Assembly: GCA_023267275.1 (NCBI GenBank)
Contig: JAHFNO010000006.1
Coordinates: 9,519 to 73,518, forward strand
Origin: Candidatus Nomurabacteria bacterium
GTDB taxonomy: Bacteria > Patescibacteriota > Minisyncoccia > Phycocordibacterales > UBA9973
DNA: 64,000 nt
Reading direction: 5' to 3'
The translations under genes and the position numbers were made by a program. Positions 1,425 to 18,222 of the stretch are shown one piece after another (positions within the stretch are counted from its first letter, which is position 1; each line of letters starts with the position of its first letter). The notes under the pieces are model-generated. The model was given only the letters and a program-made list of their open reading frames with translations, had not been told where the DNA came from and searched no databases.

Positions 1425-4022
1425 ATGAAACGATTCGCTCCACTTATTTTTACGATAGCCATCCTCGCTAGCACGTTGTTGCCTTTTTCTGCGACACTCA
1501 CTGCAAACCGGGCATATGCAGACAATACAACTTCCGTAAACACCACCTATACTCCGCCACAAGATGTTCAAGGATATCTTGAAGAATGCAGTATAAAAAC
1601 TTTTATTCCAGGATGTCTTGAACAACTAATATATTATATTCCGTACACATTCGGTTCATGGGCAATGTCTGTTGCGGCCGAGGCATTTGACGCAGCGGCA
1701 AATCTTACGCTTTCAAGCACGCTCTATACAACAGGAAGCAATTTCCTTGAAAAAGGATGGACGGTCACCCGCGACTTTGCGAATATTTTCTTTATTCTCA
1801 TTTTGCTTTTCATTGCCTTTTCTTTAGTACTCGACATCGAGATTGGTCACGCAAACCCAAAGAAAATGCTGACCTCTGTTATCTTAGTTGCCATACTTAT
1901 CAACTTCAGCTTTTTTGCTACCGAGGTTGTCATTGATATTTCCAACTCCATGGCGCTCGTCTTCTACAACCAGATCAGCGTGGTAAATGAAAGCGGGGGA
2001 GCAGTAAACAATGATGATGTTAACAAACAGCTAAAAGACACAAACAATCAATATATCAATGCAAGTGCTGTAAAACCACTGAGTGTTGCCTTAGTAAAAG
2101 CATTTACTCCGCAAGTTTTTTCAAACCCGGCGTTTTATGAAAAACTTAAAAAAGTTGGGTCAAGTGGTTTCTTTAATTCGAGTAGCAAAGTAGTAAATAC
2201 AAGCGACAAGATTGAAGCGATGGTCATCATTCCAATCATGCTCATGGTAGGAATGATGTTTCTCGTCGTTGCATATAGTTTTATTGTGGCACTCATCTCA
2301 CTCCTTGGTCGCCTTATTGGGCTTTGGATTGCAATTGTTTTTGCACCGCTCGCCTTTGTTTCCATGATTGTTCCATCCACAAAGGAAATTTCAGGATTTG
2401 GTTGGAATGACTGGAGTAGTTCGCTTCTCACCAATGCATTTGCAGCACCAATCTATTTCTTTTTCTTGCTTCTTATTTCGCTTCTCACACAAATTTCTAT
2501 TGTTCCCAAGACAATTCCTGATTCGCTTTCACCTGGAATACTCCTTGTGCTTGTCATCATCCAATTTGCAATTGTTATGACAATGCTTTTGAAAGCTACT
2601 TCATACGTAAAGAAGGCGGCTGGAGAAATTGGCAACATGGTAATGAAGGGAGCACAGGTACTCGTTGGCGGAGCAGCTGGACTTGCCGCAGGAACAGCAC
2701 TTGGCGCGGTGGCACTTGGCGGACAAGCTACAGTTGGGTTTGTGGGCAAGAGAATTTCTCAATCTGGAATGCTTAATAAATGGGCATCTGGTGAAGGTGG
2801 TGGTGGAAAATTTGGACGAGCCCTTAAGCAATTTACCGGAGAAAATGTTTTGAAGGGTAGCCAATTCCTTTCAAAATCAAGTTTTGATGCACGCCACACT
2901 GGTGTTGCCAACGCGCTCTCTTCTGCAACAGGTATTGGGCTCGGTAGTTTTGGAGCGCTCGCAGCAGCAAAAACCGCGGGTGGTCTTGAGGCCGCTGCAG
3001 CTCGCAAAGCAGAAAAAGATGAAAAGTTTGCAAATAGTCTGCGACAAAATTCCGCTCAAGAAGCAGAATTGAAGAAACTGAAAGGCGCTCGAGAAAAAGA
3101 ACTAGATGAAAAAGAAGCGGAACAAAAACTACAACAAAAATTAAAGGAGAATATTGATGCTGAGGTTCGCACACAAGAAACAATTCGTCGTGAAGCTAGT
3201 GAATTAATGAAAAATCTAAATGCTCAAGGCATTAAACCAGGAGACAAGAGATATGACGATGCACAAAAAGCCTTTGATGAAGCTCTTGTAAAATTAAATG
3301 ATGGACCCAGCGCACTCAAAAAACAAGCTGAGGATGCTCGAAAAGCTGCTCAAAAAATTAAAGAGGAAGCTGATGCAATTAAGCTTGGAAAAAGAAACGC
3401 TGATGGAACTCAAATTAAGGCAACTGAAGGGGAGACTAAAGCCGACGGAACAACAGTTACAAAAAAAGAAGCAGACAGTGGAAAAATTATCAGCAAAGAT
3501 TCTTTGTCCCTTTCAGACCTTGAAAAGCTTGTTGAAAATAGTAAAAAAGCTCCTGCACGCGCATATCTCGCATATCAAGCAGAAACATCTGGCTATCATA
3601 CAAATGTCACCCGAGACAAACTTGGTAACGTAACTGGTTTCCATGTAGACACCAGTCAACCGGGGGAAAGAAATTGGGCACGAGCTGGTATGCGCGTATT
3701 TGGTGCAGCAGCACTTGGCGGGCTTACTGGAAATATTGGACTGCTTACAACGGCTGTTAGTGGAATTGGTGGCGCAGTAACATTTGGTGTTGCAGCGGCA
3801 ATGCGAGATGTACTAGCTGAAATGGGTGGAGGAAAAACAGGTAGTAGTATTGTGGCTGGAGAGGCTGCCCATCACACAGCAGAGCCAGGTGGCAAACACG
3901 AACACGAACATGGTGTCTATCACTCACCAAACAAAGACTTCTTTGATCAGTTGAAATCAATCTTTACTGGCGGTGGAGGAGGTGGAGGTGGATCCAAACC
4001 TGCTGCAGCTGCACATCATTAA
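1425..4022 (+). CDS. VirB6/TrbL-like polytopic membrane protein with long coiled-coil, Gly-rich C-terminal tail
   Basis: An N-terminal signal peptide is followed by at least six hydrophobic helices, a Gly/Ala-rich segment, and a charged coiled-coil region (KAEKDEKFANSLRQNSAQEAELKKLK...). It sits inside a T4SS-like gene cluster. Confidence 0.5.
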   Translation: MKRFAPLIFTIAILASTLLPFSATLTANRAYADNTTSVNTTYTPPQDVQGYLEECSIKTFIPGCLEQLIYYIPYTFGSWAMSVAAEAFDAAANLTLSSTLYTTGSNFLEKGWTVTRDFANIFFILILLFIAFSLVLDIEIGHANPKKMLTSVILVAILINFSFFATEVVIDISNSMALVFYNQISVVNESGGAVNNDDVNKQLKDTNNQYINASAVKPLSVALVKAFTPQVFSNPAFYEKLKKVGSSGFFNSSSKVVNTSDKIEAMVIIPIMLMVGMMFLVVAYSFIVALISLLGRLIGLWIAIVFAPLAFVSMIVPSTKEISGFGWNDWSSSLLTNAFAAPIYFFFLLLISLLTQISIVPKTIPDSLSPGILLVLVIIQFAIVMTMLLKATSYVKKAAGEIGNMVMKGAQVLVGGAAGLAAGTALGAVALGGQATVGFVGKRISQSGMLNKWASGEGGGGKFGRALKQFTGENVLKGSQFLSKSSFDARHTGVANALSSATGIGLGSFGALAAAKTAGGLEAAAARKAEKDEKFANSLRQNSAQEAELKKLKGAREKELDEKEAEQKLQQKLKENIDAEVRTQETIRREASELMKNLNAQGIKPGDKRYDDAQKAFDEALVKLNDGPSALKKQAEDARKAAQKIKEEADAIKLGKRNADGTQIKATEGETKADGTTVTKKEADSGKIISKDSLSLSDLEKLVENSKKAPARAYLAYQAETSGYHTNVTRDKLGNVTGFHVDTSQPGERNWARAGMRVFGAAALGGLTGNIGLLTTAVSGIGGAVTFGVAAAMRDVLAEMGGGKTGSSIVAGEAAHHTAEPGGKHEHEHGVYHSPNKDFFDQLKSIFTGGGGGGGGSKPAAAAHH

Positions 4023-4933: not shown

Positions 4934-5024
4934 AACAAGAAAACATAAAAACACGAGAACAAAAAATACAATTGTTCTCGTGTTTTGTTTTCATGATCTT
5001 GTGCTCTAGTGATATAATGACTCT

Positions 5025-5429
5025 ATGCGATTTTCTGTTCCACAATTTATTGATGTTGAGGACAAAATTTTTGGACCGCTCACGTTCAAACAATTCGTCT
5101 ATCTTGTAGGTGGGGGAGGAATGGTTTTTCTTTGCTATAAATTCTTGCCTTGGTATCTTTGGATCCCTCTTGGTCTTGGATTCGGCGGTCTCGGATTTGC
5201 ACTCGCCTTTGTTAAGGTAAATGAAAAACCGCTCATCAATACGATAGAGGCAATGTTCAATTACGGTATCAATGACAAGCTCTACGTTTGGAAGAAAGAA
5301 CACCCAACCAAAAAATCACAAGAACAAAAGAACAAGGAACAAGAAGTGCCCGTTCAATTACTCCCCCGAATTTCAGAATCCAAGTTGCACGATATAGCTT
5401 GGGGACTTGATGTTCTTGATAAGAGCTAA
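5025..5429 (+). CDS. PrgI-family (VirB3-like) small membrane protein of T4SS
   Basis: The N-terminus (VPQFIDVEDKIFGPLTFKQFVYL) is followed by two TM helices, and the gene lies immediately upstream of VirB4. A conserved TGnTATAAT promoter module ends 7 nt before the ATG. Confidence 0.5.
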   Translation: MRFSVPQFIDVEDKIFGPLTFKQFVYLVGGGGMVFLCYKFLPWYLWIPLGLGFGGLGFALAFVKVNEKPLINTIEAMFNYGINDKLYVWKKEHPTKKSQEQKNKEQEVPVQLLPRISESKLHDIAWGLDVLDKS

Positions 5430-5472
5430 AAATAAAATAACACAAGAACACTAAAACAAAAGAACAAGATAT

Positions 5473-5838
5473 ATGCAGGGAAATACTTACAGAGAAACAC
5501 TTAAAAATAAAATGGATCAGTATGTTCATTTTATTTATGGGATAACGAAATCATTTCCAAAAGAAGAAATATTCGGTTCAGTTTCTCAAATACGTAGGGC
5601 GGGGCTTTCTGTTGTTTTGAATTATACGGAGGGTTATGCACGAAGAAAACCCTTGGTTCTACTAAACTTTTATGAGATTGCATATGGCTCTCTTCAAGAG
5701 TCAAAATATTTACTTTTGTTTGCAAAAGACGAAAAATATATACCTGAGGATATATACAAAAAAGGAGAAATTATGGCAAACGAAATAGGTGCAATGCTTT
5801 GGAAAGAAATTCAATCAATAGAAAAATCTATTAAATAA
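5473..5838 (+). CDS. four-helix-bundle protein (TIGR02436, 23S rRNA IVS-like protein family)
   Basis: Family signature SQIRRAGLSVVLNYTEGYARRKPLVLLNFYEIAYGSLQESKYLLLFAKDEKYI. Confidence 0.75.
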   Translation: MQGNTYRETLKNKMDQYVHFIYGITKSFPKEEIFGSVSQIRRAGLSVVLNYTEGYARRKPLVLLNFYEIAYGSLQESKYLLLFAKDEKYIPEDIYKKGEIMANEIGAMLWKEIQSIEKSIK

Positions 5839-5884
5839 CAATTTTTGATTTAATGTTCTCTTGTTCTGGTGATATACTGTTCTC

Positions 5885-6541
5885 GTGGCTATCAGCGCAA
5901 CAGCAACTCAAGAATTTGTTCCAATCAAAGAAGTCCGTGAAGGAACCATCGTTCTTAAAGATGGTGGTCTCCGGGCTATTATTGCCGTCTCATCAGTAAA
6001 CCTTGCCCTCAAATCAAGCGACGAGCAAATTGCAACAATCAATCAATTTCAGTCATTTCTCAATTCGATCGATTTTCCTATTCAAATAGTTATTCAATCT
6101 CGCCGTCTTGATATTCGACCATATCTCCTTATGCTCGAAGGCAAAATGAAAGACCAGCACGAACCTCTCCTTAAACTACAGACCGCTGGATATATTAGTT
6201 TCATTCGTGAATTTACCGAACAAGTCGCCATCATGCGCAAATACTTTTACGTAGTTATTCCCTATGAAGAAGCAGCGATTTCAACAAAAAAAGGTTTTTT
6301 GGGTGGAATTTTTGGGAACAAACAATCTGGACAGACAAAACAAATGGCTGAAAATGCAAGCTTTGAAGAAAAGCGAACACAACTTGATGAGCGCGTAAGT
6401 GTGATCGCAAATGGACTTGGCAGTGTTGGTGCTCGTACTGAGCGCCTGCAAACGGAGGAGGTGATCGAGCTCTTCTACAAGACATTCAATCCTGGAGATA
6501 TTCAACCTGCAGTAAAACTCGCCGAAGTAGTAAATCAATAA
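5885..6541 (+). CDS. VirB4/TraE N-terminal domain encoded as a separate gene
   Basis: GTG start. Matches the CagE/TrbE/VirB4 N-domain pattern (EGTIVLKDGGLRAIIAVSSVNLALKSSDEQ ... FPIQIVIQSRRLDIRPYL ... MRKYFYVVIPYEE). It is in a different frame from the downstream ATPase gene and separated from it by a 103-nt intergenic region. Confidence 0.6.
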   Translation: MAISATATQEFVPIKEVREGTIVLKDGGLRAIIAVSSVNLALKSSDEQIATINQFQSFLNSIDFPIQIVIQSRRLDIRPYLLMLEGKMKDQHEPLLKLQTAGYISFIREFTEQVAIMRKYFYVVIPYEEAAISTKKGFLGGIFGNKQSGQTKQMAENASFEEKRTQLDERVSVIANGLGSVGARTERLQTEEVIELFYKTFNPGDIQPAVKLAEVVNQ

Positions 6542-6644
6542 CCAATGAAACGCAAAAACACCAGAACAACTAAACAACAAATGCAAAAACAAGAATGTCT
6601 TTCTGGTTATTATTGTTTTAATGTTTTTATGATTTACTGATTTT

Positions 6645-8495
6645 ATGTTTTCACTATTTGGAAAAAAGAAAAACCCAGCTGGGGAATCAACCCACATTCA
6701 GGCAAACGCAATGCCTATTTTTCCTGAGCAAATTTACGAAGCAGCCTCACTTGAACTCAAAGACATCATCGCTCCTTCAGCACTCAAAATCGAACCAAAA
6801 TCAATCAACCTTGGAGACAAAATTGCACGTACCTATTTTGTTATTTCCTACCCATCAACACTCACCGACAATTGGCTCTCTCCAGTCATCAACCTCGACA
6901 AGGTATTTGATATTTCAATAACAATTCATCCTGTAGAAACTGCACAAATTCTTCGTCAATTTCAAAAGAAAGTAGCCGAGGTACAAAGCCAAATCATGGA
7001 ACGTGAAGCAAAGGGAATGGTGCGCGACCCAATGCTCGATATGGCGAACAAAAATCTTGAGGATTTGCGCGACCGTCTCACTCAAGCACAAGAAAAAATG
7101 TTTGATGTTGGACTCTATCTCACGATTTACGCCGATAACGAAACTGAATTGTATAAAATTGAAAATGAAATCAAATCAATTCTTGAATCAAAACTCATTT
7201 ACTTTAAGCCTGCACTCTTTCAGCAAGATGATGGATTTAAGAGCGTGCTTCCACTTGAAGACGATCGTTTACAGATATACCAAAAGCTCAATTCGGAGCC
7301 ACTCTCGAGTTTTTTCCCATTTGTTTCGTTTGACCTTACGAGTGACAAAGGAATTCTCTACGGTGTAAACCGCCACAATTCCTCACTCATTATTTTTGAC
7401 CGTTTCAGTCTCGACAACTACAACTCAATTATTTTTGCTACATCGGGTGCTGGAAAATCATACGCCACAAAACTCGAAGTGATTCGTTGTCTCATGTTCG
7501 ATACCGAAGTGATTGTTATCGACCCAGAACGTGAATACGAACGTCTCGCCGAAGCACTCGGTGGACGCTACTTCAATATTTCGCTCAACTCTGGAAGTCA
7601 CATCAATCCGTTTGACCTTCCGCTTCCTGGAGAGGGGGAGACGGGTAATGACGTGCTTCGCGGAAATGTCATCAATCTTGTTGGACTCTTTCGTATCATG
7701 CTTGGCGGACTTACTGCCGAAGAAGACGCGCTCGTTGATCGCGCCATAATGGAAACATATGCGGTTAAAGACATCACTCCGGATTCTGATTTTTCTCAAA
7801 TCGAACCGCCGCTTCTTTCCGATTTCGAAATGGTACTCTCGGGCATGGAAGGAACTGAATCAATCGTTTCTCGTCTTTCAAAATATACCCACGGTTCGTG
7901 GGCAGGGTTTATCAACCAGCCATCAAACGTAGACATCAACAAAAAATTTGTGGTTTTCTCTGTGCGCGACATGGAAGACGACCTCAAACCTGCAGCCATG
8001 TATATCGTGACCCACTTCATTTGGAACGAAGTTCGTAAAAATATCAAAAAACGACTGCTTGTAGTGGATGAGGCATGGTGGATGATGAAATCCGACGATA
8101 CTGCCTCGTTCTTGTACTCGATTGCAAAGCGCGGCCGCAAATATTTCTTAGGACTTGCCACAATCACTCAAGACGTCGGAGATTTTATGAAGAGCCCATA
8201 CGGTATTCCAATCGTTACGAACTCATCACTGCAACTTCTCTTGAAACAATCGCCATCAACGGTAGATGTATTGCAAAAAACATTCAACCTCACTGATGAA
8301 GAGAAATATCTGTTGCTTGAATGTAACAAGGGGGAGGGAATCTTCTTTGCTGGACTCAAACATGTGGCGATTAAAGTGATTGCCTCGTACACAGAAGACC
8401 AGCTCATCACAAGCGACCCGTCACAAATCCTAGCATTACAAAAATCAAGAACAGAACTCGCAGAAGCTGTATCTGGAACACCTCCGGTTCAATAA
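6645..8495 (+). CDS. virB4: T4SS ATPase VirB4/TraC/CagE family (C-terminal ATPase half)
   Basis: Walker A ATSGAGKSYATK, Walker B LLVVDEAWWMM, and the VirB4 middle-region motif DIIAPSALKIEPKSINLGDKIARTYFVISYP. Confidence 0.85.
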   Translation: MFSLFGKKKNPAGESTHIQANAMPIFPEQIYEAASLELKDIIAPSALKIEPKSINLGDKIARTYFVISYPSTLTDNWLSPVINLDKVFDISITIHPVETAQILRQFQKKVAEVQSQIMEREAKGMVRDPMLDMANKNLEDLRDRLTQAQEKMFDVGLYLTIYADNETELYKIENEIKSILESKLIYFKPALFQQDDGFKSVLPLEDDRLQIYQKLNSEPLSSFFPFVSFDLTSDKGILYGVNRHNSSLIIFDRFSLDNYNSIIFATSGAGKSYATKLEVIRCLMFDTEVIVIDPEREYERLAEALGGRYFNISLNSGSHINPFDLPLPGEGETGNDVLRGNVINLVGLFRIMLGGLTAEEDALVDRAIMETYAVKDITPDSDFSQIEPPLLSDFEMVLSGMEGTESIVSRLSKYTHGSWAGFINQPSNVDINKKFVVFSVRDMEDDLKPAAMYIVTHFIWNEVRKNIKKRLLVVDEAWWMMKSDDTASFLYSIAKRGRKYFLGLATITQDVGDFMKSPYGIPIVTNSSLQLLLKQSPSTVDVLQKTFNLTDEEKYLLLECNKGEGIFFAGLKHVAIKVIASYTEDQLITSDPSQILALQKSRTELAEAVSGTPPVQ

Positions 8496-8600
8496 AACAA
8501 AAAATCACGAGAACACTAGAGCAAAAAGCCCCGCGCTACGCGCGGGGCTTTTTGTTACTTTTTGTTTTTATGTTCATTGTTCTAGTGATATACTGTTTCT

Positions 8601-9585: not shown

Positions 9586-11328
9586 ATGAATAAAAAAATA
9601 TTTATTTTTCTTTTTGTTATACTTTCTTTTTTTGTAAAAATCCCATTTACATCTGCGGGTTTGCAACCATTCCCCAGCCCAACAATAAAAATTGTCTCTC
9701 TGGGTGGAGAAAACTATTCGATCGAGTTAACTTTTACAATGGATTCAGTAACATTAGAATCCATTAAAGACAGTCCGTTCCGTGTATCCCTAGCTCATAA
9801 AAATAGCAAGAAGGGTGCTACTGTATCAGATTCAGATACAATGGAAACATGTGCAAGAGAAGGCTCAACTTCTTTATATACATGCCCAATACAAAACTTA
9901 AAAAATGGGGATACTGAGGTTTTTCAGGTTGGAATAAATAAAAATACAGCTTTGGGTGTTTCCTGGTCTCCTTTATACCAACCAGCAACAACAACAATAA
10001 ATGAACCAGTCTCAACACCTTCATTCACCCTTCAAGGAAAACCTGTGGTAAGTGGAATGACTGCAACTGCTACAGTAAACGCCTCAAACCTTCCAGCTCA
10101 AGGCGGAATATATTACCTTGAATTAGGAGATGCGATGTCAAAATCAGGTGCAAGCAACTACACATGTACAATGAATTCAGGTTTACGTTCACCAGAAATA
10201 CCTGCTGGACATGGAAATCCAAATACCATCAGTTACACATTCACATTGCCACTTCCCGGTGGGTACTGTGTTGGATTGTTACAAAAAAATCTTAATGGGA
10301 GTGTGCGAACCCCCGATGGTGTTCCTGAATATTTTCCTGACTCATTATTTTTTACAGACGGGGTCACTCCACCTCCTGGAGCAACACTTAGTGGAACAGC
10401 AAATAAACTTGGTTGTGTAGCTGGAGACGGCAATAGTGGATACTGTTTACTCGCACCGCTTCCTGGAATTGGAGACCCGAATACTGGATATATCGATGTT
10501 ACCAAAGGCATGGGTAACTATATCAACATGATTATCCGTCTTGTACTTGGTCTCATTGGTGTGCTTGCAGTATTTATGATTATTGTTGGTGGTATCGAAT
10601 ACATGTCGACGGTTTCGCTCGGAGAAAAAGAGGGTGCAAGAACCCGTATTACCAACGCACTATTTGGACTTCTCCTTGCTCTTGCTTCATATATTCTCTT
10701 AAATACAATCAATCCTAACCTTGTAAGTCTGAAAGTGGCTATTCCAAATGCAACTATTGAATATGCCTCAGATGAAGGAAATGAAACAAGCGATATAACC
10801 CCTCCAACTCCAAACATTTCTGGTATTCAAGTTTTCCCAAGCGACACAGCGCAAAATCTGGCAAAACAAATACTGAAAACGCCGGCAATTACCTACCGCA
10901 CACTTCAAGATGAAGCTACAGCAACACCAAAACAAAATATTGAAGATACTGCAGCTGGCAATTCTGCTATGACAAGTAGTAGAGGAGATGTGGGAGCTCA
11001 AAAGGTTGCGTTGGCTGCTCCAATGCTTACTGGATTACTCACAGCTGCAAAATTCTCTTCAATAGAAATTACTGAGATCACTGGGGGAAAACATAGCCCT
11101 GGATCAGCACATTATTTTGGTAGAGCGTTTGATGTTACTGCATCAAAAAATGACACTTCGAGAAATATACAAGTGATGAATGCTTGTCTTGCCGCAAAAG
11201 CAAAAATGAGTCAAATATTTGGACCCTGTTCAGGCTCTTACCGAAGCGATGGAAAATTTACAATATGTGCCGATACAGGGTATCTCACAAACAAAGACCA
11301 TCAAACACATATTCACTGTGGCTGGTAG
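9586..11328 (+). CDS. Secreted protein with pilin-like two-helix membrane hairpin and C-terminal peptidase M15-like (cell-wall hydrolase) domain
   Basis: A signal peptide, then a TM hairpin (NMIIRLVLGLIGVLAVFMIIVGGIEYM ... ITNALFGLLLALASYILLNTINPNLV) reminiscent of VirB2/TrbC pilins. The C-terminus carries an H-x6-D motif (SPGSAHYFGRAFDV) and a terminal HIHCGW, like Zn DD/LD-peptidases. Confidence 0.45.
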   Translation: MNKKIFIFLFVILSFFVKIPFTSAGLQPFPSPTIKIVSLGGENYSIELTFTMDSVTLESIKDSPFRVSLAHKNSKKGATVSDSDTMETCAREGSTSLYTCPIQNLKNGDTEVFQVGINKNTALGVSWSPLYQPATTTINEPVSTPSFTLQGKPVVSGMTATATVNASNLPAQGGIYYLELGDAMSKSGASNYTCTMNSGLRSPEIPAGHGNPNTISYTFTLPLPGGYCVGLLQKNLNGSVRTPDGVPEYFPDSLFFTDGVTPPPGATLSGTANKLGCVAGDGNSGYCLLAPLPGIGDPNTGYIDVTKGMGNYINMIIRLVLGLIGVLAVFMIIVGGIEYMSTVSLGEKEGARTRITNALFGLLLALASYILLNTINPNLVSLKVAIPNATIEYASDEGNETSDITPPTPNISGIQVFPSDTAQNLAKQILKTPAITYRTLQDEATATPKQNIEDTAAGNSAMTSSRGDVGAQKVALAAPMLTGLLTAAKFSSIEITEITGGKHSPGSAHYFGRAFDVTASKNDTSRNIQVMNACLAAKAKMSQIFGPCSGSYRSDGKFTICADTGYLTNKDHQTHIHCGW

Positions 11329-12924: not shown

Positions 12925-13431
12925 TTATGTTCTTGTGTCTCGATATCGAATAACAATGTGTCGTTTCATTCCATCACCCGCTGATTCGGTGTACACATCA
13001 GGGACTTCTCCGAGGAACTCGTGAATGATGCGGCGTTCGTGTGGAGGCATTGGGTCGAGATCAACACTTGATTTAAAATACCGTGCGCGTTCTGCCATCA
13101 TGTGTGCGATGGTTTTTAAATTGTCGATTTTCTTTTTCTCAACATTATTTGCATCAATCACCACACGTGGTCGAACTGTTTCTTCACGCATGATTTGTTC
13201 AACAACTTTTGTTGCCAAGTGATTGAGTGCAGTGAGTGCTTCACCATCACGATTTGAAAGAAGGCGAGTGTGCGGGGAAGTAATAGAAAACCAAATAGTA
13301 TTCATTTTCTCATCATACGAAACAGTAACATCAGCCTCAGTAAAACCGAGTTGAGCAAGCATGCCTTTTATATATGTATGTATTTGGTCGTGTTTCATAG
13401 CGTATATCTCAAATCCTATATTTTGTATCAA
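12925..13431 (-). CDS. jag: RNA-binding protein Jag/KhpB (KH + R3H domains)
   Basis: R3H motif ERRIIHEFL; conserved position downstream of yidC. Confidence 0.75.
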   Translation of the reverse strand: MIQNIGFEIYAMKHDQIHTYIKGMLAQLGFTEADVTVSYDEKMNTIWFSITSPHTRLLSNRDGEALTALNHLATKVVEQIMREETVRPRVVIDANNVEKKKIDNLKTIAHMMAERARYFKSSVDLDPMPPHERRIIHEFLGEVPDVYTESAGDGMKRHIVIRYRDTRT

Positions 13432-13471
13432 TTAGAGGAAAGCCCGCCGATAGGCGGGCTTTTAAGAAAGA

Positions 13472-14200
13472 TTAAGCTTGTTTCTTCGCCTTCATCTTGC
13501 TTCGTGTGTAGAGCTCCTGACCTATAGTAAAGATATTACTCGTAATCCAATAAAGCGCAACTGCTGAAGGAAAAAGGAAGTAAGAGAGTCCGGCAGTCAT
13601 AATAGGGAGTCCATAAATCATTTGTACCTGCATATTCTTGGCAAATTCGGCTTGCATACCAGTACCTGTTGGCTTTGCCTGACGACTCTGCATAAGTTTT
13701 GCTTGTACAAACTGTGTTACTCCAACCAAAACAGCAAATACAATACTGTGCTTCACCGAAAGATCGATAAATCCCAAGAAGTGGAGATTGATGAGTGCTG
13801 GCTGGTGTACAAATGAATAGAGTGTCGCTGGTTGAACAATAGTAAGGATTCCAAGAAAGGCTCGATAGAGAGCAATGAGTACCACAGCCTGGATCAAGAG
13901 TGGCATACAACTTGAAAACGGACTGATATTCTTTTCTTTATACAGTGCGAAAATTTGTTTGTTCTGTTCGGTTTTATCAGTAACTTTTTCTTTGATAGCA
14001 GCAACTTCATCTTGCACACTAGTCATTTTGATCTGGCCTTCGATTGCATGCTGGTTGAGCGGGAAGAGGGCGAGTTTGATAATAATTGTAAGAATAATAA
14101 CCGCAAGACCAAGGTCTCCGTGTGGCAAAATACCAATACCAAAGATCAGTGCATTGTAAAAAGGCTGATAAAAAACAGCGGTCCAAAAAGTGTGTAACAT
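13472..14200 (-). CDS. yidC: membrane protein insertase YidC (short form)
   Basis: Polytopic 242-aa protein in the conserved rnpA-yidD-yidC-jag order. Confidence 0.8.
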   Translation of the reverse strand: MLHTFWTAVFYQPFYNALIFGIGILPHGDLGLAVIILTIIIKLALFPLNQHAIEGQIKMTSVQDEVAAIKEKVTDKTEQNKQIFALYKEKNISPFSSCMPLLIQAVVLIALYRAFLGILTIVQPATLYSFVHQPALINLHFLGFIDLSVKHSIVFAVLVGVTQFVQAKLMQSRQAKPTGTGMQAEFAKNMQVQMIYGLPIMTAGLSYFLFPSAVALYWITSNIFTIGQELYTRSKMKAKKQA

Positions 14201-14310
14201 TGGGTCATTATATCACTAGAGCACGAGAACATGAAAACAAATAAAACCACGCCAGGCGCGGTTTTATTATATCGTGTTTTTATGATTTTTTGTTCTGGTG
14301 TTCTTGTGGT

Positions 14311-14592
14311 TCATGGAACCAGGTCTACACCTGGTGTATTGCGTGGATTACAACGAAGAAGTCGTTTTGATCCTAGATAAACACCTTTGATGGTGCCGTG
14401 TTTTTCAATAGCTTGCTTCATATATTCAGAGCATGTCGGGTAGTACATACACACCTTCCGATTAAGACCAAAAAATCGTGGAATACGTCCGGTGTCAAAA
14501 GACAAGAACTTTTGGTAAAAGATAATCAAAAATATAAAGGGTTTCTTAGAAATTGTGGTCACTGTTTTTATGATCTTTTGTTTATTGTTCAT
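14311..14592 (-). CDS. yidD: membrane protein insertion efficiency factor YidD
   Basis: CMYYPTCSEY motif. Confidence 0.8.
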   Translation of the reverse strand: MNNKQKIIKTVTTISKKPFIFLIIFYQKFLSFDTGRIPRFFGLNRKVCMYYPTCSEYMKQAIEKHGTIKGVYLGSKRLLRCNPRNTPGVDLVP

Positions 14593-14935
14593 TGACTCTA
14601 TATATTCGCGCTTGAATAAACGCTTTTTTGAGTTCTTCCCGCATTTCAGGAATGGTTGTCTTGATATCTGGGTTTGTATAAGAAACGAGGGCTACGGCAG
14701 TTGGGGAAAGAAAGGGGATAAGTGGTCGCACAGCATCATACCCTCGTCGGCGAAGCTTATTTCGAAGCACAGCTTTTGGTGCAATCTTCTTTGAGGCGCT
14801 GAAGGATACTTGGGGAGCTGTATGGGAAGGAATTTGTGTATACAAAACAAGAAAGCGCGAAGTTTTTAACCTTCGGCCCTTGAGAAGATGCTTTTCTATC
14901 GTTTGCTTCGTAATACGCGATCTCTTTGGAAGCAT
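14582..14935 (-). CDS. rnpA: ribonuclease P protein component
   Basis: Basic 117-aa protein immediately downstream of rpmH in the conserved context. Confidence 0.75.
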   Translation of the reverse strand: MLPKRSRITKQTIEKHLLKGRRLKTSRFLVLYTQIPSHTAPQVSFSASKKIAPKAVLRNKLRRRGYDAVRPLIPFLSPTAVALVSYTNPDIKTTIPEMREELKKAFIQARIYRVNEQ

Positions 14936-14994
14936 GTAATGAATTTCTAAATCCTAATGTCTAATTTCTAAAAAAGACCTAGGTATAAAGAAAA

Positions 14995-15129
14995 TTAGAG
15001 TGCGATTTTAGCGCGACCTTTCTGGCGTCTCTTTGCCAAGACTTTTCGTCCGGAAGTAGATTTTGAGCGAACGAGGAAACCGTGGGTTTTTGCTCGTTTT
15101 CTCTTTTTTGGCTGGTAGGTAAATGACAT
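14995..15129 (-). CDS. rpmH: 50S ribosomal protein L34
   Basis: [44 protein letters not shown]; the internal Met at 15129 is used rather than the longer ORF start. Confidence 0.9.
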
Positions 15130-15538
15130 AGAGCCAATATAGCACAAGAACATAAAAACACAAGAACAATAAAACAAAAAATATGAAAACCTGACTTATA
15201 GCTATAGGGTGTGTGTTGGTGGTCTAATGTTCCTTTGTTCTTGTGATTATGGTTCTTGTGATCTTGTAATTTAGTGTTCTATTGAATTTTTTGTTTTCAT
15301 GTTCATTTGTTCTTGTGTTATATTGGTTACCCACAGGTTATCAACAGAGATATGCATCGATATTTCTACTCAAAAAAACCTCGGCCTATATAATCGAACT
15401 TATGGATCCCGTAGTAGAAAATGACATTAAAGAAGCGGGACTGTAAGAGTGTGGTAAACATAAAAAGAAAACCGTTACTAGTATTAATTTAGAAAATGGG
15501 TCGCTTCTTTAAGAAGCAATGTCATTTCTCACTACGGG
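15130..15538. promoter_or_regulatory. candidate oriC part 1 / dnaA promoter region
   Basis: Strand switch between rpmH (-) and dnaA (+). DnaA-box-like 9-mers TTACCCACA, TTATCAACA and TGTGGTAAA each carry 1-2 mismatches to TTATCCACA. Multiple GTTCTTGTG repeats are present. Confidence 0.5.
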
Positions 15539-16900
15539 ATGGATACAAAAGAACTCTGGGACCACTGTTTAGTCGAGATTGAAAGTGAAGTTTCAAAGGC
15601 TAATTTCAGTACTTGGTTTAAAAACACTTCATTAGTAAAAGAAGATGCCGGAACGGTGTTTGTTGGTGTGCCAAATGAATTCGTCAAAGACTGGCTTTCA
15701 AACAAATTCCACAAACTCATCATGCGCGTACTCCGAAACGCATGGGAACACACTCGCAATGTTGAATACATGGTAGTAAAAGGCGATCCAAAGTCGCACA
15801 AAATTGAAGTTTCAAGCCAATTGAAGCCAGATTTTGCTATCAGCCAAGAACTTCCTCTCAAAGACCTCTATGTAAACAAGGATGACAACCTCAATCCTCG
15901 TTATACGTTCGATACATTCATCGTTGGACCATTCAACGAGCTCGCATATGCTGCCACACAAGCTGCAGTGGCTCGTCCAGGTAAGCAATACAACCCGCTT
16001 TTCATCTATGGATCGTCTGGTCTTGGAAAAACCCACCTCATTCAAGCAGTAGGGAATGCTATCAAGGAAAAATATCCAGAAAAAAAGGTGTACTACATCA
16101 CGCAGGAAAAATTTACGGTTGATTACATCAACTCAGTACAATCAAACCGTGGTGCTGGAAATACTTTTAAGGAAAAATATCGTAAGTATGATGCGATTAT
16201 TATTGACGACGTACAACTTGTAGGAAAAGCGGAAAAAACCCAAGAAGAATTATTCCATTTATTCAACAGCTATCACGAAGCAGGGAAGCAGATTGTCTTT
16301 TCTTCTGATAAACACCCAAACTTTATTCCGGGATTGGAAGATCGTATGCGCACTCGTTTTGCGCAGGGTATGATAGTGGATATTACCGAGCCTGAATATG
16401 AGTCTCGTCTCGCAATTTTACGTTCAAAAGTACAAGAACTTGGACTCAACCTTCCAGATGAGCTTATGGAATACATTGCAAGCGCTATTGCCGGTAATGT
16501 GCGTGAGCTCGAGGGTAGTTTGAATGCAATCGTGCTTCAATCTCAACTCAAAGGACGTTTTCCAACACTCCTTGAAACAAAAAACCTTCTAAAAAATAGT
16601 ATCAAACAAAAGAAAACCGCTTCCGTAAAAGAAGTAGTGAAGACGATTGCTGACTTTTATAATGTAGAAGAGGCTTCTATTTACGAAAAGACTCGCCGAA
16701 AGGAGATTGTGAAGGTTCGCCAAATCGTGATGTTTATTCTCCGTGAAGATTTTAGTGTGTCATATCCACTTATTGGACAAAAACTCGGGGGAAAAGATCA
16801 CACCACTGTTATCCATTCATGCTTAAAAATAAAGAACGATATGAAAAACGACATGCTTATTGCTCAAGAATTAGATCAAATACGGGCATTGTTCAAATAA
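15539..16900 (+). CDS. dnaA: chromosomal replication initiator DnaA
   Basis: AAA+ Walker A GSSGLGKTHL and a C-terminal DNA-binding domain; characteristic position next to dnaN. Confidence 0.95.
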   Translation: MDTKELWDHCLVEIESEVSKANFSTWFKNTSLVKEDAGTVFVGVPNEFVKDWLSNKFHKLIMRVLRNAWEHTRNVEYMVVKGDPKSHKIEVSSQLKPDFAISQELPLKDLYVNKDDNLNPRYTFDTFIVGPFNELAYAATQAAVARPGKQYNPLFIYGSSGLGKTHLIQAVGNAIKEKYPEKKVYYITQEKFTVDYINSVQSNRGAGNTFKEKYRKYDAIIIDDVQLVGKAEKTQEELFHLFNSYHEAGKQIVFSSDKHPNFIPGLEDRMRTRFAQGMIVDITEPEYESRLAILRSKVQELGLNLPDELMEYIASAIAGNVRELEGSLNAIVLQSQLKGRFPTLLETKNLLKNSIKQKKTASVKEVVKTIADFYNVEEASIYEKTRRKEIVKVRQIVMFILREDFSVSYPLIGQKLGGKDHTTVIHSCLKIKNDMKNDMLIAQELDQIRALFK

Positions 16901-17124
16901 TTGAAGGTTTTGGGTAAAGGTCTGTGGAAAAAGGGTGTGAATATGTGGAATGAATGTGAATAAAAAGAGTGATTTAAAACAAGAAAAAATAGGTGTGTGT
17001 ATAAGATTCTCATTATCAACAGTTGTATAAAAGAAAAAATACAGATTATAGGTTTACAATATAAAGGTATTTCAATCTTATACACATTTCCACAGGGTTA
17101 ATAGTAATAGTAATTTATATATAT
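16901..17124. promoter_or_regulatory. candidate oriC part 2 (dnaA-dnaN intergenic): DnaA-box cluster + AT-rich unwinding element
   Basis: Box-like sites TGTGGAAAA, TGTGGAATG, TGTGAATAA, TTATCAACA and TTTCCACAG, followed by taatagtaatagtaatttatatatat immediately before the dnaN ATG. Confidence 0.5.
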
Positions 17125-18222
17125 ATGATATTCGAAACTACTGTTGAAAAACTCATAACTATAATTGAAAATGCAGATCGTGTGACAGCACGAAATGCAT
17201 CACTCCCAGCACTAAGTACAATTCTTATGATTGTTTCCGGGAGTTCTCTAAAAGTACGAGCAACAAATCTTTCTCTTGGAGTTGAATTTGAAATACCAGT
17301 AAAAAAAGAAAAGGATGGTGTGATTGCACTCGACGGAAAAACACTCTATTCATTTTTAAGTACTCTTCCAAAAAACGAGAAAATAAAAATAGCACACAAT
17401 GAATCAACCCTCACTCTCACCACAGATCACAATCGCACTACAATCAAAACTCACCCATACGAAGATTTTCCTACACTCCCTTCTGTTTCAGGTACTCAAA
17501 TTCAAATACCACAGAAAGAATTTATTCGCGGTATAAAAAACACTTACTTTGCATCCGCTGTTTCTGATATCAAACCCGAGATTGCAAGTGTATTTATGTG
17601 TGCTGAAAAAAACACACTATTTTTTGTGGCTACAGACTCATTCCGTCTTGCTGAAAAGAAAGAAACAATCAAAAAAGCCGTAGAATTTTCTCCGATTCTC
17701 ATTCCATATAAAAACATTATTGAAATTGCTCGTATTCTTGAAAATAAAACAGAAGAAATAACACTTTCTATTAATGAAAATCAAATCGCAATAACGATTC
17801 CAGGAATATATATCACCTCACGACTTACTTCTGGAAGTTTTCCAGATTATAAGCAGATTATCCCCAAGGAATTTCTTACTGAAGTCGTAGTGTTGAAACA
17901 AGATTTACTTACTACACTCAAAACCGCAAACATTTTCTCAGATAAATTTAATCAAATTACGTTTTCTATTACGCCTTCCAAGAAAAAGTTTGAATGTGTA
18001 TCAAAAAATTCTGATGTTGGTGAATATTCTGGAGTAATCGACGCAACCCTCTCCGGAGATGATGTCTCAATCGCTCTCAATCAACGCTATTTGATTGAAT
18101 GTCTCTCATTCATCCCTCAAGACAGTATTACAATTGGACTCAATGGTGGCAGCAAGGCGGTCGTTATACGCGGTGTAGGAGATTCTTCATTCACATACCT
18201 CCTTATGCCGATGAATAGGTAA
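17125..18222 (+). CDS. dnaN: DNA polymerase III beta sliding clamp
   Basis: 365-aa protein directly after dnaA; three-domain clamp-like sequence. Confidence 0.85.
   Translation: MIFETTVEKLITIIENADRVTARNASLPALSTILMIVSGSSLKVRATNLSLGVEFEIPVKKEKDGVIALDGKTLYSFLSTLPKNEKIKIAHNESTLTLTTDHNRTTIKTHPYEDFPTLPSVSGTQIQIPQKEFIRGIKNTYFASAVSDIKPEIASVFMCAEKNTLFFVATDSFRLAEKKETIKKAVEFSPILIPYKNIIEIARILENKTEEITLSINENQIAITIPGIYITSRLTSGSFPDYKQIIPKEFLTEVVVLKQDLLTTLKTANIFSDKFNQITFSITPSKKKFECVSKNSDVGEYSGVIDATLSGDDVSIALNQRYLIECLSFIPQDSITIGLNGGSKAVVIRGVGDSSFTYLLMPMNR

What the first reader, a model, noticed from the sequence alone, without database searches (positions are those of the whole stretch)
5885..8495. VirB4 ATPase split into two separate genes (N-domain gene + ATPase gene)
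The 218-aa product of 5885-6541 carries the VirB4/CagE/TrbE N-terminal domain signatures. The 616-aa product of 6645-8495 carries the middle and ATPase domains with Walker A and B motifs. The two genes are in different frames and are separated by a 103-nt intergenic region, and the second gene has its own start codon. In characterised conjugation and type IV secretion systems VirB4 is a single polypeptide of roughly 800 aa, so a genuine split would be unusual. It may also show how the N-domain, which contacts VirB3 and the membrane, works as an independent subunit.
Basis: partly seen in the sequence, partly recalled or inferred. Interest (0 to 1): 0.55.

Follow-up and report, generated by a model that had tools for sequence, protein, structure and literature searches.

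The report
Two-gene VirB4 (TrsD-like plus ATPase)
The type IV secretion ATPase VirB4 really is encoded here as two conserved genes, but this TrsD-like plus short-VirB4 arrangement is the normal, already published state in Patescibacteria and in staphylococcal pGO1/pSK41-type plasmids, so it is ordinary.

Summary
ORFs 5885-6541 (218 aa) and 6645-8495 (616 aa) exist, lie in different frames and are 103 nt apart. Together they tile a full-length VirB4. The 218-aa protein aligns end to end with residues 1-221 of a single-chain 797-aa VirB4 from Ca. Colwellbacteria, and the 616-aa protein aligns with residues 230-791.

It is not an assembly error. In all 70 related species-level genomes where both genes are visible, the same two genes sit next to each other, always with a stop codon between them and in every relative frame. 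Both are under strong purifying selection.

It is not unusual either. The 218-aa protein is a TrsD-like protein (Pfam PF26593 "TraC-like"). pSK41 has the same trsC-trsD-trsE order with the same breakpoint. A 2025 paper (PMC12102498) reports TrsD as the most abundant T4SS component of Patescibacteria, usually next to virB4, and describes it as remotely homologous to the VirB4 N-terminus.

The cut lies inside the VirB4 N-terminal domain, not between that domain and the ATPase. The likely mechanism, which is inferred, is that the detached module re-associates with the short VirB4 and with the VirB3-like PrgI at the membrane.

Verdict: real, already known, low interest.

The parts
5025..5429 (+). 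PrgI-family (VirB3-like) small membrane protein, 134 aa. It is the expected membrane partner of the VirB4 N-terminus.
   Evidence: Pfam PF12666 PrgI, E 6.7e-08, 33.4 bits against a cut-off of 27. One hydrophobic segment was found by a simple hydropathy scan. A PrgI homologue lies directly upstream of the TrsD-like gene in nearly all of the 80 related loci.
5864..5881 (+). Promoter-like element TTCTGGTGATATACTGTT (extended -10, TGnTATACT) that ends 3 nt before the GTG start. The -10 hexamer is 6 nt from the start codon, so the mRNA may be leaderless.
   Evidence: The same 18-mer pattern recurs at 8580-8597 in front of the 8601 gene, against 0.01 matches expected by chance. A related exact 18-mer lies in front of PrgI and yidC. 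The upstream contexts are listed. Function is inferred, not shown.
5885..6541 (+). TrsD-like gene, 218 aa. It encodes the detached N-terminal module of VirB4 (Pfam PF26593 'TraC-like'). No transmembrane segment is predicted.
   Evidence: NCBIfam hits: NF045975 VirB4_plasma positions 103-233 (E 6.5e-11), NF041427 TrsD/TraD (E 1.5e-07) and TIGR00929 positions 3-175. It aligns over residues 1-218 with residues 1-221 of the fused 797-aa VirB4 P0251 (E 7e-41). It aligns over residues 9-203 with residues 53-220 of the Anaerococcus CD1110-family VirB4 (E 6e-08). There are 6285 homologues; the top 120 are all 189-232 aa and carry PF26593. All of the top 14 Foldseek PDB hits are TrwK/VirB4 chains. dN is 0.08-0.19 with saturated dS.
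6542..6644 (+). 103-nt spacer between the two genes. It is longer than the 1-12 nt typical of relatives and holds a weaker -10-like TGATTTACT placed 6 nt before the ATG.
   Evidence: Stop codons occur in all frames. The closest relative, L001, has a 3-nt spacer. No significant RNA structure was found (z = -1.43).
6645..8495 (+). Short VirB4 (TrsE-like), 616 aa. It holds the remainder of the N-terminal domain (about residues 1-230) and the C-terminal RecA-like ATPase domain.
   Evidence: NF045971 conju_CD1110 scores 382 bits against a cut-off of 325, over profile positions 181-733 of 752. Pfam P-loop_TraG E 1.9e-25 and AAA_10 E 2.5e-10. PDB 4AG5 VirB4 C-terminal domain E 1e-40 over residues 234-589. 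pSK41 TrsE E 2e-32, aligned from residue 1. Fused P0251 is 54% identical over residues 38-598.
7446..7460 (+). Walker A motif (GAGKS, residues 268-272 of the 616-aa protein).
   Evidence: Read directly from the translation.
8055..8078 (+). Walker B motif (LLVVDEAW, residues 471-478).
   Evidence: Read directly from the translation.
1425..4022 (+). 865-aa protein with a signal-like N-terminus and about 7 hydrophobic segments. It is a candidate VirB6-like polytopic membrane component of the same cluster (context only).
   Evidence: Hydropathy scan. No Pfam or NCBIfam assignment was obtained. The VirB6 role is an inference from position and topology.
9586..11328 (+). 580-aa protein with a T4SS-pilin-like hydrophobic hairpin (residues ~305-375). 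It is part of the same T4SS cluster (context).
   Evidence: Pfam T4SS_pilin E 2.7e-04, below the cut-off. NF045849 Mbov_0395 pilin-like E 2.3e-04. Hydrophobic segments at residues 309-345 and 354-373.

Best explanation
This is the chromosomal type IV secretion cluster of a Patescibacterium (Paceibacteria/Nomurabacteria-like), located next to the replication origin. The signature ATPase VirB4 is encoded as two separately translated proteins. One is a 218-aa TrsD-like protein that equals the first ~200 residues of a full-length VirB4. The other is a 616-aa short VirB4 (TrsE-like) that carries the rest of the N-terminal domain and the ATPase domain.

Shown here: the two genes are collinear and complementary with single-chain VirB4s. 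The stop codon between them is conserved across the lineage. Both genes are under purifying selection. The breakpoint is the same as in pSK41 TrsD/TrsE. A fused version exists in Ca. Colwellbacteria.

Inferred mechanism: the two polypeptides re-associate non-covalently to rebuild the VirB4 N-terminal domain. In the R388 structure that domain mediates VirB4 dimerisation and is wrapped by VirB3. The TrsD-like module would therefore be the part that docks the ATPase hexamer onto the VirB3-like PrgI and the membrane, while the 616-aa protein supplies ATP hydrolysis.
For: Tiling on profiles: the 218-aa protein covers TIGR00929 positions 3-175 and the 616-aa protein covers positions 250-726. On NF045975 they cover 103-233 and 282-893.

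Tiling on real fused proteins: in P0251 (797 aa, three Colwellbacteria MAGs), residues 1-221 match the 218-aa protein (E 7e-41) and residues 230-791 match the 616-aa protein at 54% identity. In the Anaerococcus pAPRE01 VirB4, residues 53-220 and 262-805 match the two proteins respectively.

Conservation: 70 of 70 species-level loci with both genes visible have the two-gene state. Gaps are mostly 1-12 nt and frame offsets 0, 1 and 2 all occur. The C-terminus of the small protein is conserved. dN/dS is far below 1 for both genes.

Same architecture elsewhere: pSK41 has trsC-trsD-trsE, and TrsE aligns from residue 1. Geobacillus and C. perfringens megaplasmids have PrgI, then a TrsD-like gene, then a DUF87 ATPase gene.

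Structure: the AF2 model's top 14 Foldseek PDB hits are all TrwK/VirB4 chains, with probability up to 0.97.

Literature: TrsD homologues are the most abundant T4SS component in Patescibacteria, are mostly adjacent to virB4, are remotely homologous to the VirB4 N-terminus, and the TrsD homologue of S. epibionticum ML1 is listed as essential (PMC12102498). In R388 the VirB4 N-terminal domain mediates the VirB4 dimer interface and is wrapped by VirB3 (PMC9259494; PMC12857230).
Against: No physical interaction between the two products, or with PrgI, was tested or can be tested with these tools.

The AF2 model has modest confidence (mean pLDDT 61.7), and no Foldseek hit reaches E <= 0.001.

The 218-aa protein falls far below the curated cut-off of the NCBIfam TrsD/TraD model (31.4 against 200 bits). 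Its pairwise similarity to pSK41 TrsD is weak (E 4e-04 over 41 residues).

Here a 23S-rRNA-IVP-family gene separates PrgI from the TrsD-like gene, and a 103-nt spacer with its own promoter-like element separates the two VirB4 genes. Tight translational coupling is therefore not obligatory.

PMC12102498 notes that TrsD homologues in Gracilibacteria are not associated with virB4.
Confidence: 0.85

Rival explanations
1. The TrsD-like protein is an independent accessory or regulatory factor that merely descends from the VirB4 N-terminus. It could be an assembly chaperone, an inhibitor or a substrate adaptor. On this reading it is not a structural piece that rebuilds the VirB4 N-terminal domain.
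For: [quoted passage not shown] The small protein evolves about 2-2.5 times faster at non-synonymous sites than the ATPase. Many representatives carry extra C-terminal extensions, giving lengths of 280-443 aa, as does the 318-aa Geobacillus homologue. In a haloarchaeal plasmid the domain sits at the C-terminus of a 1075-aa protein.
Against: The short VirB4 lacks exactly the profile positions that the small protein supplies. Fused single-chain proteins exist with only an ~8-residue linker between the two parts. The gene order PrgI, TrsD-like, VirB4 is nearly invariant, with 1-12 nt gaps.
Confidence: 0.12
2. Assembly or sequencing frameshift, or a recent pseudogenisation, of a single full-length virB4 gene.
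For: The two ORFs are in different frames, and the spacer in this genome is unusually long (103 nt against 1-12 nt in most relatives).
Against: The two-gene state with an intervening stop is present in 70 of 70 independent related assemblies, with frame offsets of 0, 1 and 2. The exact 218-aa and 616-aa sequences are catalogued on an 81.9-kb contig. There are 6285 homologues, and the top 120 are all 189-232 aa. Purifying selection acts on both genes. The spacer has stops in all frames, so a single indel cannot join the ORFs.
Confidence: 0.01
3. Programmed recoding (frameshifting or stop read-through) joins the two ORFs into one polypeptide during translation.
For: In many relatives the genes are only 1-6 nt apart.
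Against: Frame relationships vary among relatives (0, 1 and 2), so no single recoding event is conserved. In this window 103 nt with several stops in every frame would have to be crossed. No significant RNA structure is present in the spacer.
Confidence: 0.01

Closest known systems
TrsD + TrsE of staphylococcal conjugative plasmids pGO1/pSK41 (MPF_FATA subclass pGO1). NCBIfam groups TrsD with TraD as the 'TrsD/TraD family'; the pIP501 TraD/TraE pair is recalled from memory and was not examined here.
   Same: The gene order is the same: VirB3-like (TrsC or PrgI), then a ~220-aa TrsD, then a ~620-670-aa VirB4-type ATPase. The breakpoint is the same, because the 616-aa protein aligns from residue 1 to TrsE residue 1 (E 2e-32). 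The 218-aa protein hits the TrsD/TraD profile (E 1.5e-07).
   Different: The sequences are very divergent. The score is 31 bits against the model's 200-bit cut-off, and pairwise E is 4e-04. The locus here is chromosomal, next to dnaA, and no relaxase was detected among the cluster proteins scanned. PMC12102498 reports that most Patescibacteria T4SS clusters lack a relaxase, so the system is probably not conjugative.
Patescibacteria T4SS as catalogued by Quinonero-Coronel et al. 2025 (PMC12102498)
   Same: The window shows a TrsD homologue adjacent to virB4, PrgI/VirB3 upstream, a VirB2-like pilin domain nearby, and a location near dnaA/dnaN/rnpA. This is the arrangement described for Paceibacteria.
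   Different: Nothing substantive differs. The paper calls the similarity 'remote homology' and assigns no function. The analysis here adds the explicit complementarity of the two genes, the shared breakpoint with TrsE, and fused forms in Colwellbacteria.
Single-chain VirB4 (TrwK of R388; CD1110-family VirB4 of Firmicutes ICEs and plasmids; 797-aa VirB4 of Ca. Colwellbacteria)
   Same: All domains are present and collinear, and Walker A and B motifs are present. The 616-aa protein passes the CD1110-family cut-off (382 against 325 bits).
   Different: The first ~200 residues are on a separate polypeptide. The cut lies inside the N-terminal domain, which spans residues 15-400 in TrwK according to PMC9259494.
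VirB3-VirB4 fusions reported in some conjugative systems (cited in PMC12102498)
   Same: These fusions show that domain boundaries at the N-terminal side of VirB4 are evolutionarily plastic, and that VirB3 and the VirB4 N-terminus work together.
   Different: The direction is opposite: fusion there, fission here. No VirB3-VirB4 fusion is seen in this window or in the related loci.

Membership tests
VirB4 family ATPase (616-aa product) | C-terminal RecA-like P-loop ATPase domain of the VirB4/TraC type with Walker A and Walker B motifs | tested here: met
   Pfam P-loop_TraG scores 89.8 bits (cut-off 25.8) and AAA_10 scores 40.4 bits (cut-off 27.5). PDB 4AG5 VirB4 C-terminal domain E 1e-40. GAGKS at residues 268-272 and LLVVDEAW at residues 471-478.
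VirB4 family ATPase (616-aa product) | Passes a curated whole-protein VirB4 model | tested here: met
   NF045971 (VirB4-like conjugal transfer ATPase, CD1110 family) scores 382 bits against a cut-off of 325. The match covers only profile positions 181-733 of 752. TIGR00929 scores 109.9 bits, below its cut-off of 643.
VirB4 family ATPase (616-aa product) | Complete N-terminal domain on the same polypeptide | tested here: not met
   Profile positions ~1-180 (CD1110), 1-250 (TIGR00929) and 1-281 (VirB4_plasma) are absent from the 616-aa protein. They are supplied by the 218-aa protein.
VirB4 family ATPase (616-aa product) | Encoded next to a VirB3-like small membrane protein | tested here: met
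   PrgI-family gene at 5025-5429. It is separated from the VirB4 genes by an IVP-family gene in this window and lies directly upstream in relatives.
TrsD/TraD family (NCBIfam NF041427) / CONJscan TrsD | Score above the curated cut-off of NF041427 | tested here: not met
   31.4 bits against a cut-off of 200, E 1.5e-07, profile positions 16-142 of 201. The protein is homologous but is not a member of the narrow staphylococcal/enterococcal subfamily.
TrsD/TraD family (NCBIfam NF041427) / CONJscan TrsD | A ~200-230-aa protein encoded between the VirB3-like gene and a short (~600-670 aa) VirB4 gene | tested here: met
   Window layout compared with pSK41 trsC-trsD-trsE, with the same breakpoint.
TrsD/TraD family (NCBIfam NF041427) / CONJscan TrsD | Detected by the CONJscan TrsD HMM used in PMC12102498 | not testable with these tools
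   That profile is not among the libraries offered. The paper reports 2,272 hits in Patescibacteria.
Pfam PF26593 (TraC-like domain) | Significant match to the PF26593 model | tested here: inconclusive
   The precomputed annotation lists PF26593.2 for P0001, which is 100% identical to the window protein, and for all of the top 120 homologues. One search gives the name 'TraC-like'. The model is not in the local Pfam library, so the hit could not be reproduced.

The most novel reading that the evidence does not exclude
The detached TrsD-like module is more than a passive fragment. Separating it from the ATPase would let the cell set its stoichiometry independently of VirB4. For example, only the VirB3-bound 'central' protomers might carry it. 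That would give monoderm and Patescibacteria T4SSs an inner-membrane complex architecture different from the R388 hexamer of dimers. On this reading the repeated fission and fusion (split in most lineages, fused in Colwellbacteria and CD1110-type systems) marks switches between the two architectures.
Probability: 0.12. Interest if true: 0.5.

Novelty: already known. Interest (0 to 1): 0.2.

Why it matters
The T4SS is reported as essential for epibiotic growth of the cultivated Saccharibacterium S. epibionticum. [quoted passage not shown] TrsD plus the short VirB4 are collinear with, and complementary to, single-chain VirB4s. They share one breakpoint from staphylococcal plasmids to Patescibacteria and are re-fused in Colwellbacteria. 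This gives TrsD a concrete, testable role as the VirB3-docking and dimerisation module of VirB4. That is a modest clarification of a known arrangement, not a discovery.

Tried and rejected
- **Local Pfam scan of the 218-aa protein.** It gave no hit even at E <= 10. PF26593 is missing from that library.
- **Sequence search of the 218-aa protein against PDB chains.** It gave only a chance hit, E 0.31.
- **The 103-nt spacer.** I looked for a structured RNA, terminator or mobile element. Folding is not better than shuffles (z = -1.43). The spacer shares no sequence with the palindromic spacer elements seen in relatives.
- **Literature on pIP501 TraD/TraE and on 'split VirB4'.** No paper was found that explicitly describes the split. 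The main text of Guglielmini et al. 2014 does not mention TrsD by name. The statement of homology is taken from PMC12102498.
- **Assembly frameshift, recoding, and 'extra paralogue beside a full-length VirB4'.** All three were rejected on the evidence.
Full report
**1. What is in the sequence**

The two ORFs exist as described. ORF 5885-6541 is on the + strand, starts with GTG and encodes 218 aa. ORF 6645-8495 is on the + strand, starts with ATG and encodes 616 aa. They are in different frames. The 103-nt spacer has stop codons in all three frames, including an in-frame stop for the second ORF at 6630-6632. Walker A (GAGKS, residues 268-272) and Walker B (LLVVDEAW, residues 471-478) are in the 616-aa product.

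**2. Do the two products make one VirB4?**

Profile searches say yes.
- The 616-aa protein matches Pfam P-loop_TraG (1.9e-25), AAA_10 and DUF87.
- It matches the crystallised VirB4 C-terminal domain 4AG5 (1e-40, residues 234-589).
- It matches NCBIfam VirB4 models, but only from internal profile positions onward: CD1110 family 181-733 of 752 (5.6e-114, above the curated cut-off), VirB4_plasma 282-893 of 894, and TIGR00929 250-726 of 792.
- The 218-aa protein matches the missing N-terminal positions of the same models: VirB4_plasma 103-233 (6.5e-11), TIGR00929 3-175 and CD1110 2-75. It also matches the TrsD/TraD family model (1.5e-07).

The local Pfam library gives the 218-aa protein no hit. 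The weak CagE_TrbE_VirB signal (E 0.038) lies in the 616-aa protein. The cut lies inside the VirB4 N-terminal domain, leaving about 230 residues of it on the ATPase gene.

Real fused proteins confirm the tiling.
- A CD1110-family VirB4 of Anaerococcus pAPRE01 (807 aa) aligns with the 218-aa protein over its residues 53-220 (6e-08). It aligns with the 616-aa protein over its residues 262-805 (7e-57).
- A 797-aa VirB4 (P0251) is found in three Ca. Colwellbacteria MAGs, preceded by PrgI and close to dnaA. Over its residues 1-221 it aligns with the whole 218-aa protein (7e-41). Over its residues 230-791 it aligns with residues 38-598 of the 616-aa protein at 54% identity.
- The window's two genes therefore equal one polypeptide of a related Patescibacterium, with only a short linker between the parts.

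**3. Is it an artefact?**

No.
- The 218-aa protein has 6285 homologues at E <= 1e-3. The top 120 are all 189-232 aa, come from Patescibacteria MAGs and carry PF26593, which is named 'TraC-like'.
- The homologues share a conserved C-terminus.
- A scan of GTDB species representatives returned 80 loci. In all 70 loci where both genes are visible, a 210-247-aa TrsD-like gene is followed directly by a VirB4 gene of mostly 608-696 aa (one, L066, appears truncated or disrupted). Gaps are mostly 1-12 nt, apparent overlaps come from maximal ORF starts, and relative frames 0, 1 and 2 all occur.
- Non-synonymous divergence is low (dN 0.08-0.19 for the small gene, 0.04-0.11 for the ATPase) while synonymous sites are saturated.
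- A profile search of 1.84 billion cluster representatives found 3214 clusters at E <= 1e-3. Of the best 150, only two are long fused proteins.

**4. Is it unusual?**

No.
- pSK41 has trsC (VirB3-like), trsD (227 aa) and trsE (672 aa) in the same order. The 616-aa protein aligns with TrsE from residue 1 of both proteins (2e-32). The breakpoint is therefore shared.
- tblastn on plasmids found 151 records. Among them, Geobacillus pGspE55-1 and C. perfringens pJFP838A have PrgI, then a ~315-aa TrsD-like protein, then a DUF87 ATPase. In a haloarchaeal plasmid the domain ends a 1075-aa protein that precedes a DUF87 ATPase.
- PMC12102498 (Microb Genom 2025) states that TrsD is 'the most abundant T4SS component' in Patescibacteria. 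It reports 2,272 homologues in 2,221 assemblies, with 1,664 associated with virB4. [quoted passage not shown]
- The same paper notes that the T4SS lies near dnaA in Paceibacteria. The window has Jag/R3H, YidC, YidD, RnpA, DnaA and DnaN at 12.9-18.2 kb.

**5. How it most likely works**

The genetic architecture above is shown. The following mechanism is inferred.
- In the R388 T4SS the VirB4 N-terminal domain (residues 15-400) mediates the central/outside VirB4 dimer interface and is wrapped by VirB3 (PMC9259494; PMC12857230).
- The 218-aa protein corresponds to the first half of that domain and has no predicted transmembrane segment. Its AF2 model (pLDDT 61.7) finds TrwK/VirB4 chains as all of its top 14 Foldseek PDB hits. 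Probability reaches 0.97, but E is only 0.016-0.25.
- I therefore propose that it re-associates non-covalently with the short VirB4 to complete the N-terminal domain, and that it docks the ATPase onto PrgI at the membrane.
- The main rival is that it acts as an independent accessory or regulatory protein. This is weakened by the exact complementarity and by the natural fusions, but it is not excluded.

**6. Local peculiarities**

- In this genome the spacer is 103 nt, against 3 nt in the closest relative L001. It carries a -10-like TGATTTACT placed 6 nt before the ATG.
- PrgI, the TrsD-like gene, the 8601 gene and yidC each have a strong extended -10 (TGATATAAT or TGATATACT) exactly 6 nt before the start codon, inside longer conserved 18-mers. 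Chance expectation is 0.01-0.04 matches against 2 + 2 observed. This suggests leaderless transcripts.
- A 23S-rRNA-IVP-family gene sits between PrgI and the TrsD-like gene, flanked by an imperfect inverted repeat.
- In relatives, the TrsD-VirB4 junction is repeatedly occupied by palindromic cassettes, some carrying IVP-like or GIY-YIG-like ORFs.

**7. Verdict**

The arrangement is already catalogued as TrsD + VirB4. The increment here is the explicit complementarity of the two genes, the shared breakpoint with TrsE, and the natural fused forms in Colwellbacteria. Interest is low.

Noticed in passing
window 5473-5838 (flanks 5441-5469 and 5859-5887); L003 6661-7140: A 23S-rRNA-intervening-sequence-protein family gene (PF05635, E 4.9e-25; weaker bAvd-like hit) sits between PrgI and the TrsD-like gene, flanked by an imperfect 29-nt inverted repeat. 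In relatives the IVP gene lies elsewhere, upstream of PrgI. In L003 a second IVP-like ORF, flanked by aattaggaatta.../...taattcctaatt inverted repeats, fills the TrsD-VirB4 spacer. It looks like a small mobile cassette.
   Followed up: partly
L019 2441-2566, L043 6655-6776, L049, L053, L063, L069 (119-130 nt); L045 6649-6931: In several related genomes the TrsD-VirB4 junction holds a ~120-nt palindromic element (cccgttagaag.cgcgatc ... gatcgcg..cttctaacggg). Its ends pair into a long stem (z down to -4.2). In L045 the same termini enclose a GIY-YIG-like ORF. These are MITE-like or IVS-like hairpin cassettes that repeatedly land exactly between the two VirB4 genes.
   Followed up: partly
window 5004-5021 (+), 14204-14221 (-), 5864-5881 (+), 8580-8597 (+); weaker at 6628-6644: Conserved 18-mers contain an extended -10 box (TGATATAAT or TGATATACT) placed 6 nt before the start codons of PrgI, yidC, the TrsD-like gene and the 326-aa gene. 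Two exact copies occur of each variant, against 0.01-0.04 expected. No Shine-Dalgarno sequence is visible. This suggests leaderless mRNAs and co-regulation of the T4SS genes with yidC.
   Followed up: partly
window 12925-18222: The T4SS cluster lies next to the origin-region genes: Jag/R3H, YidC, YidD and RnpA on the - strand, then DnaA (15539-16900) and DnaN (17125-18222). This matches the published observation that Patescibacteria T4SS loci sit near dnaA.
   Followed up: yes
L086 544-2937 (Ca. Colwellbacteria, GCA_964615945.1) and P0247 (898 aa): Natural single-chain versions (TrsD-like part, ~8-residue linker, VirB4) exist within Patescibacteria. The 797-aa form is present in three independent MAGs. 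Fission or fusion has therefore happened within the phylum.
   Followed up: partly
L066 2341-2632: In one related MAG the VirB4 gene appears disrupted. Its N-terminal ~70 codons are in another frame and a segment is missing. This is either a pseudogene or an assembly error in that MAG.
   Followed up: no
window 4950-4995: A perfect hairpin (ACACGAGAACAA ... TTGTTCTCGTGT) followed by TTTTGTTTT lies after the 275-aa gene and just before the PrgI promoter-like motif. It looks like an intrinsic terminator separating transcription units within the cluster.
   Followed up: no
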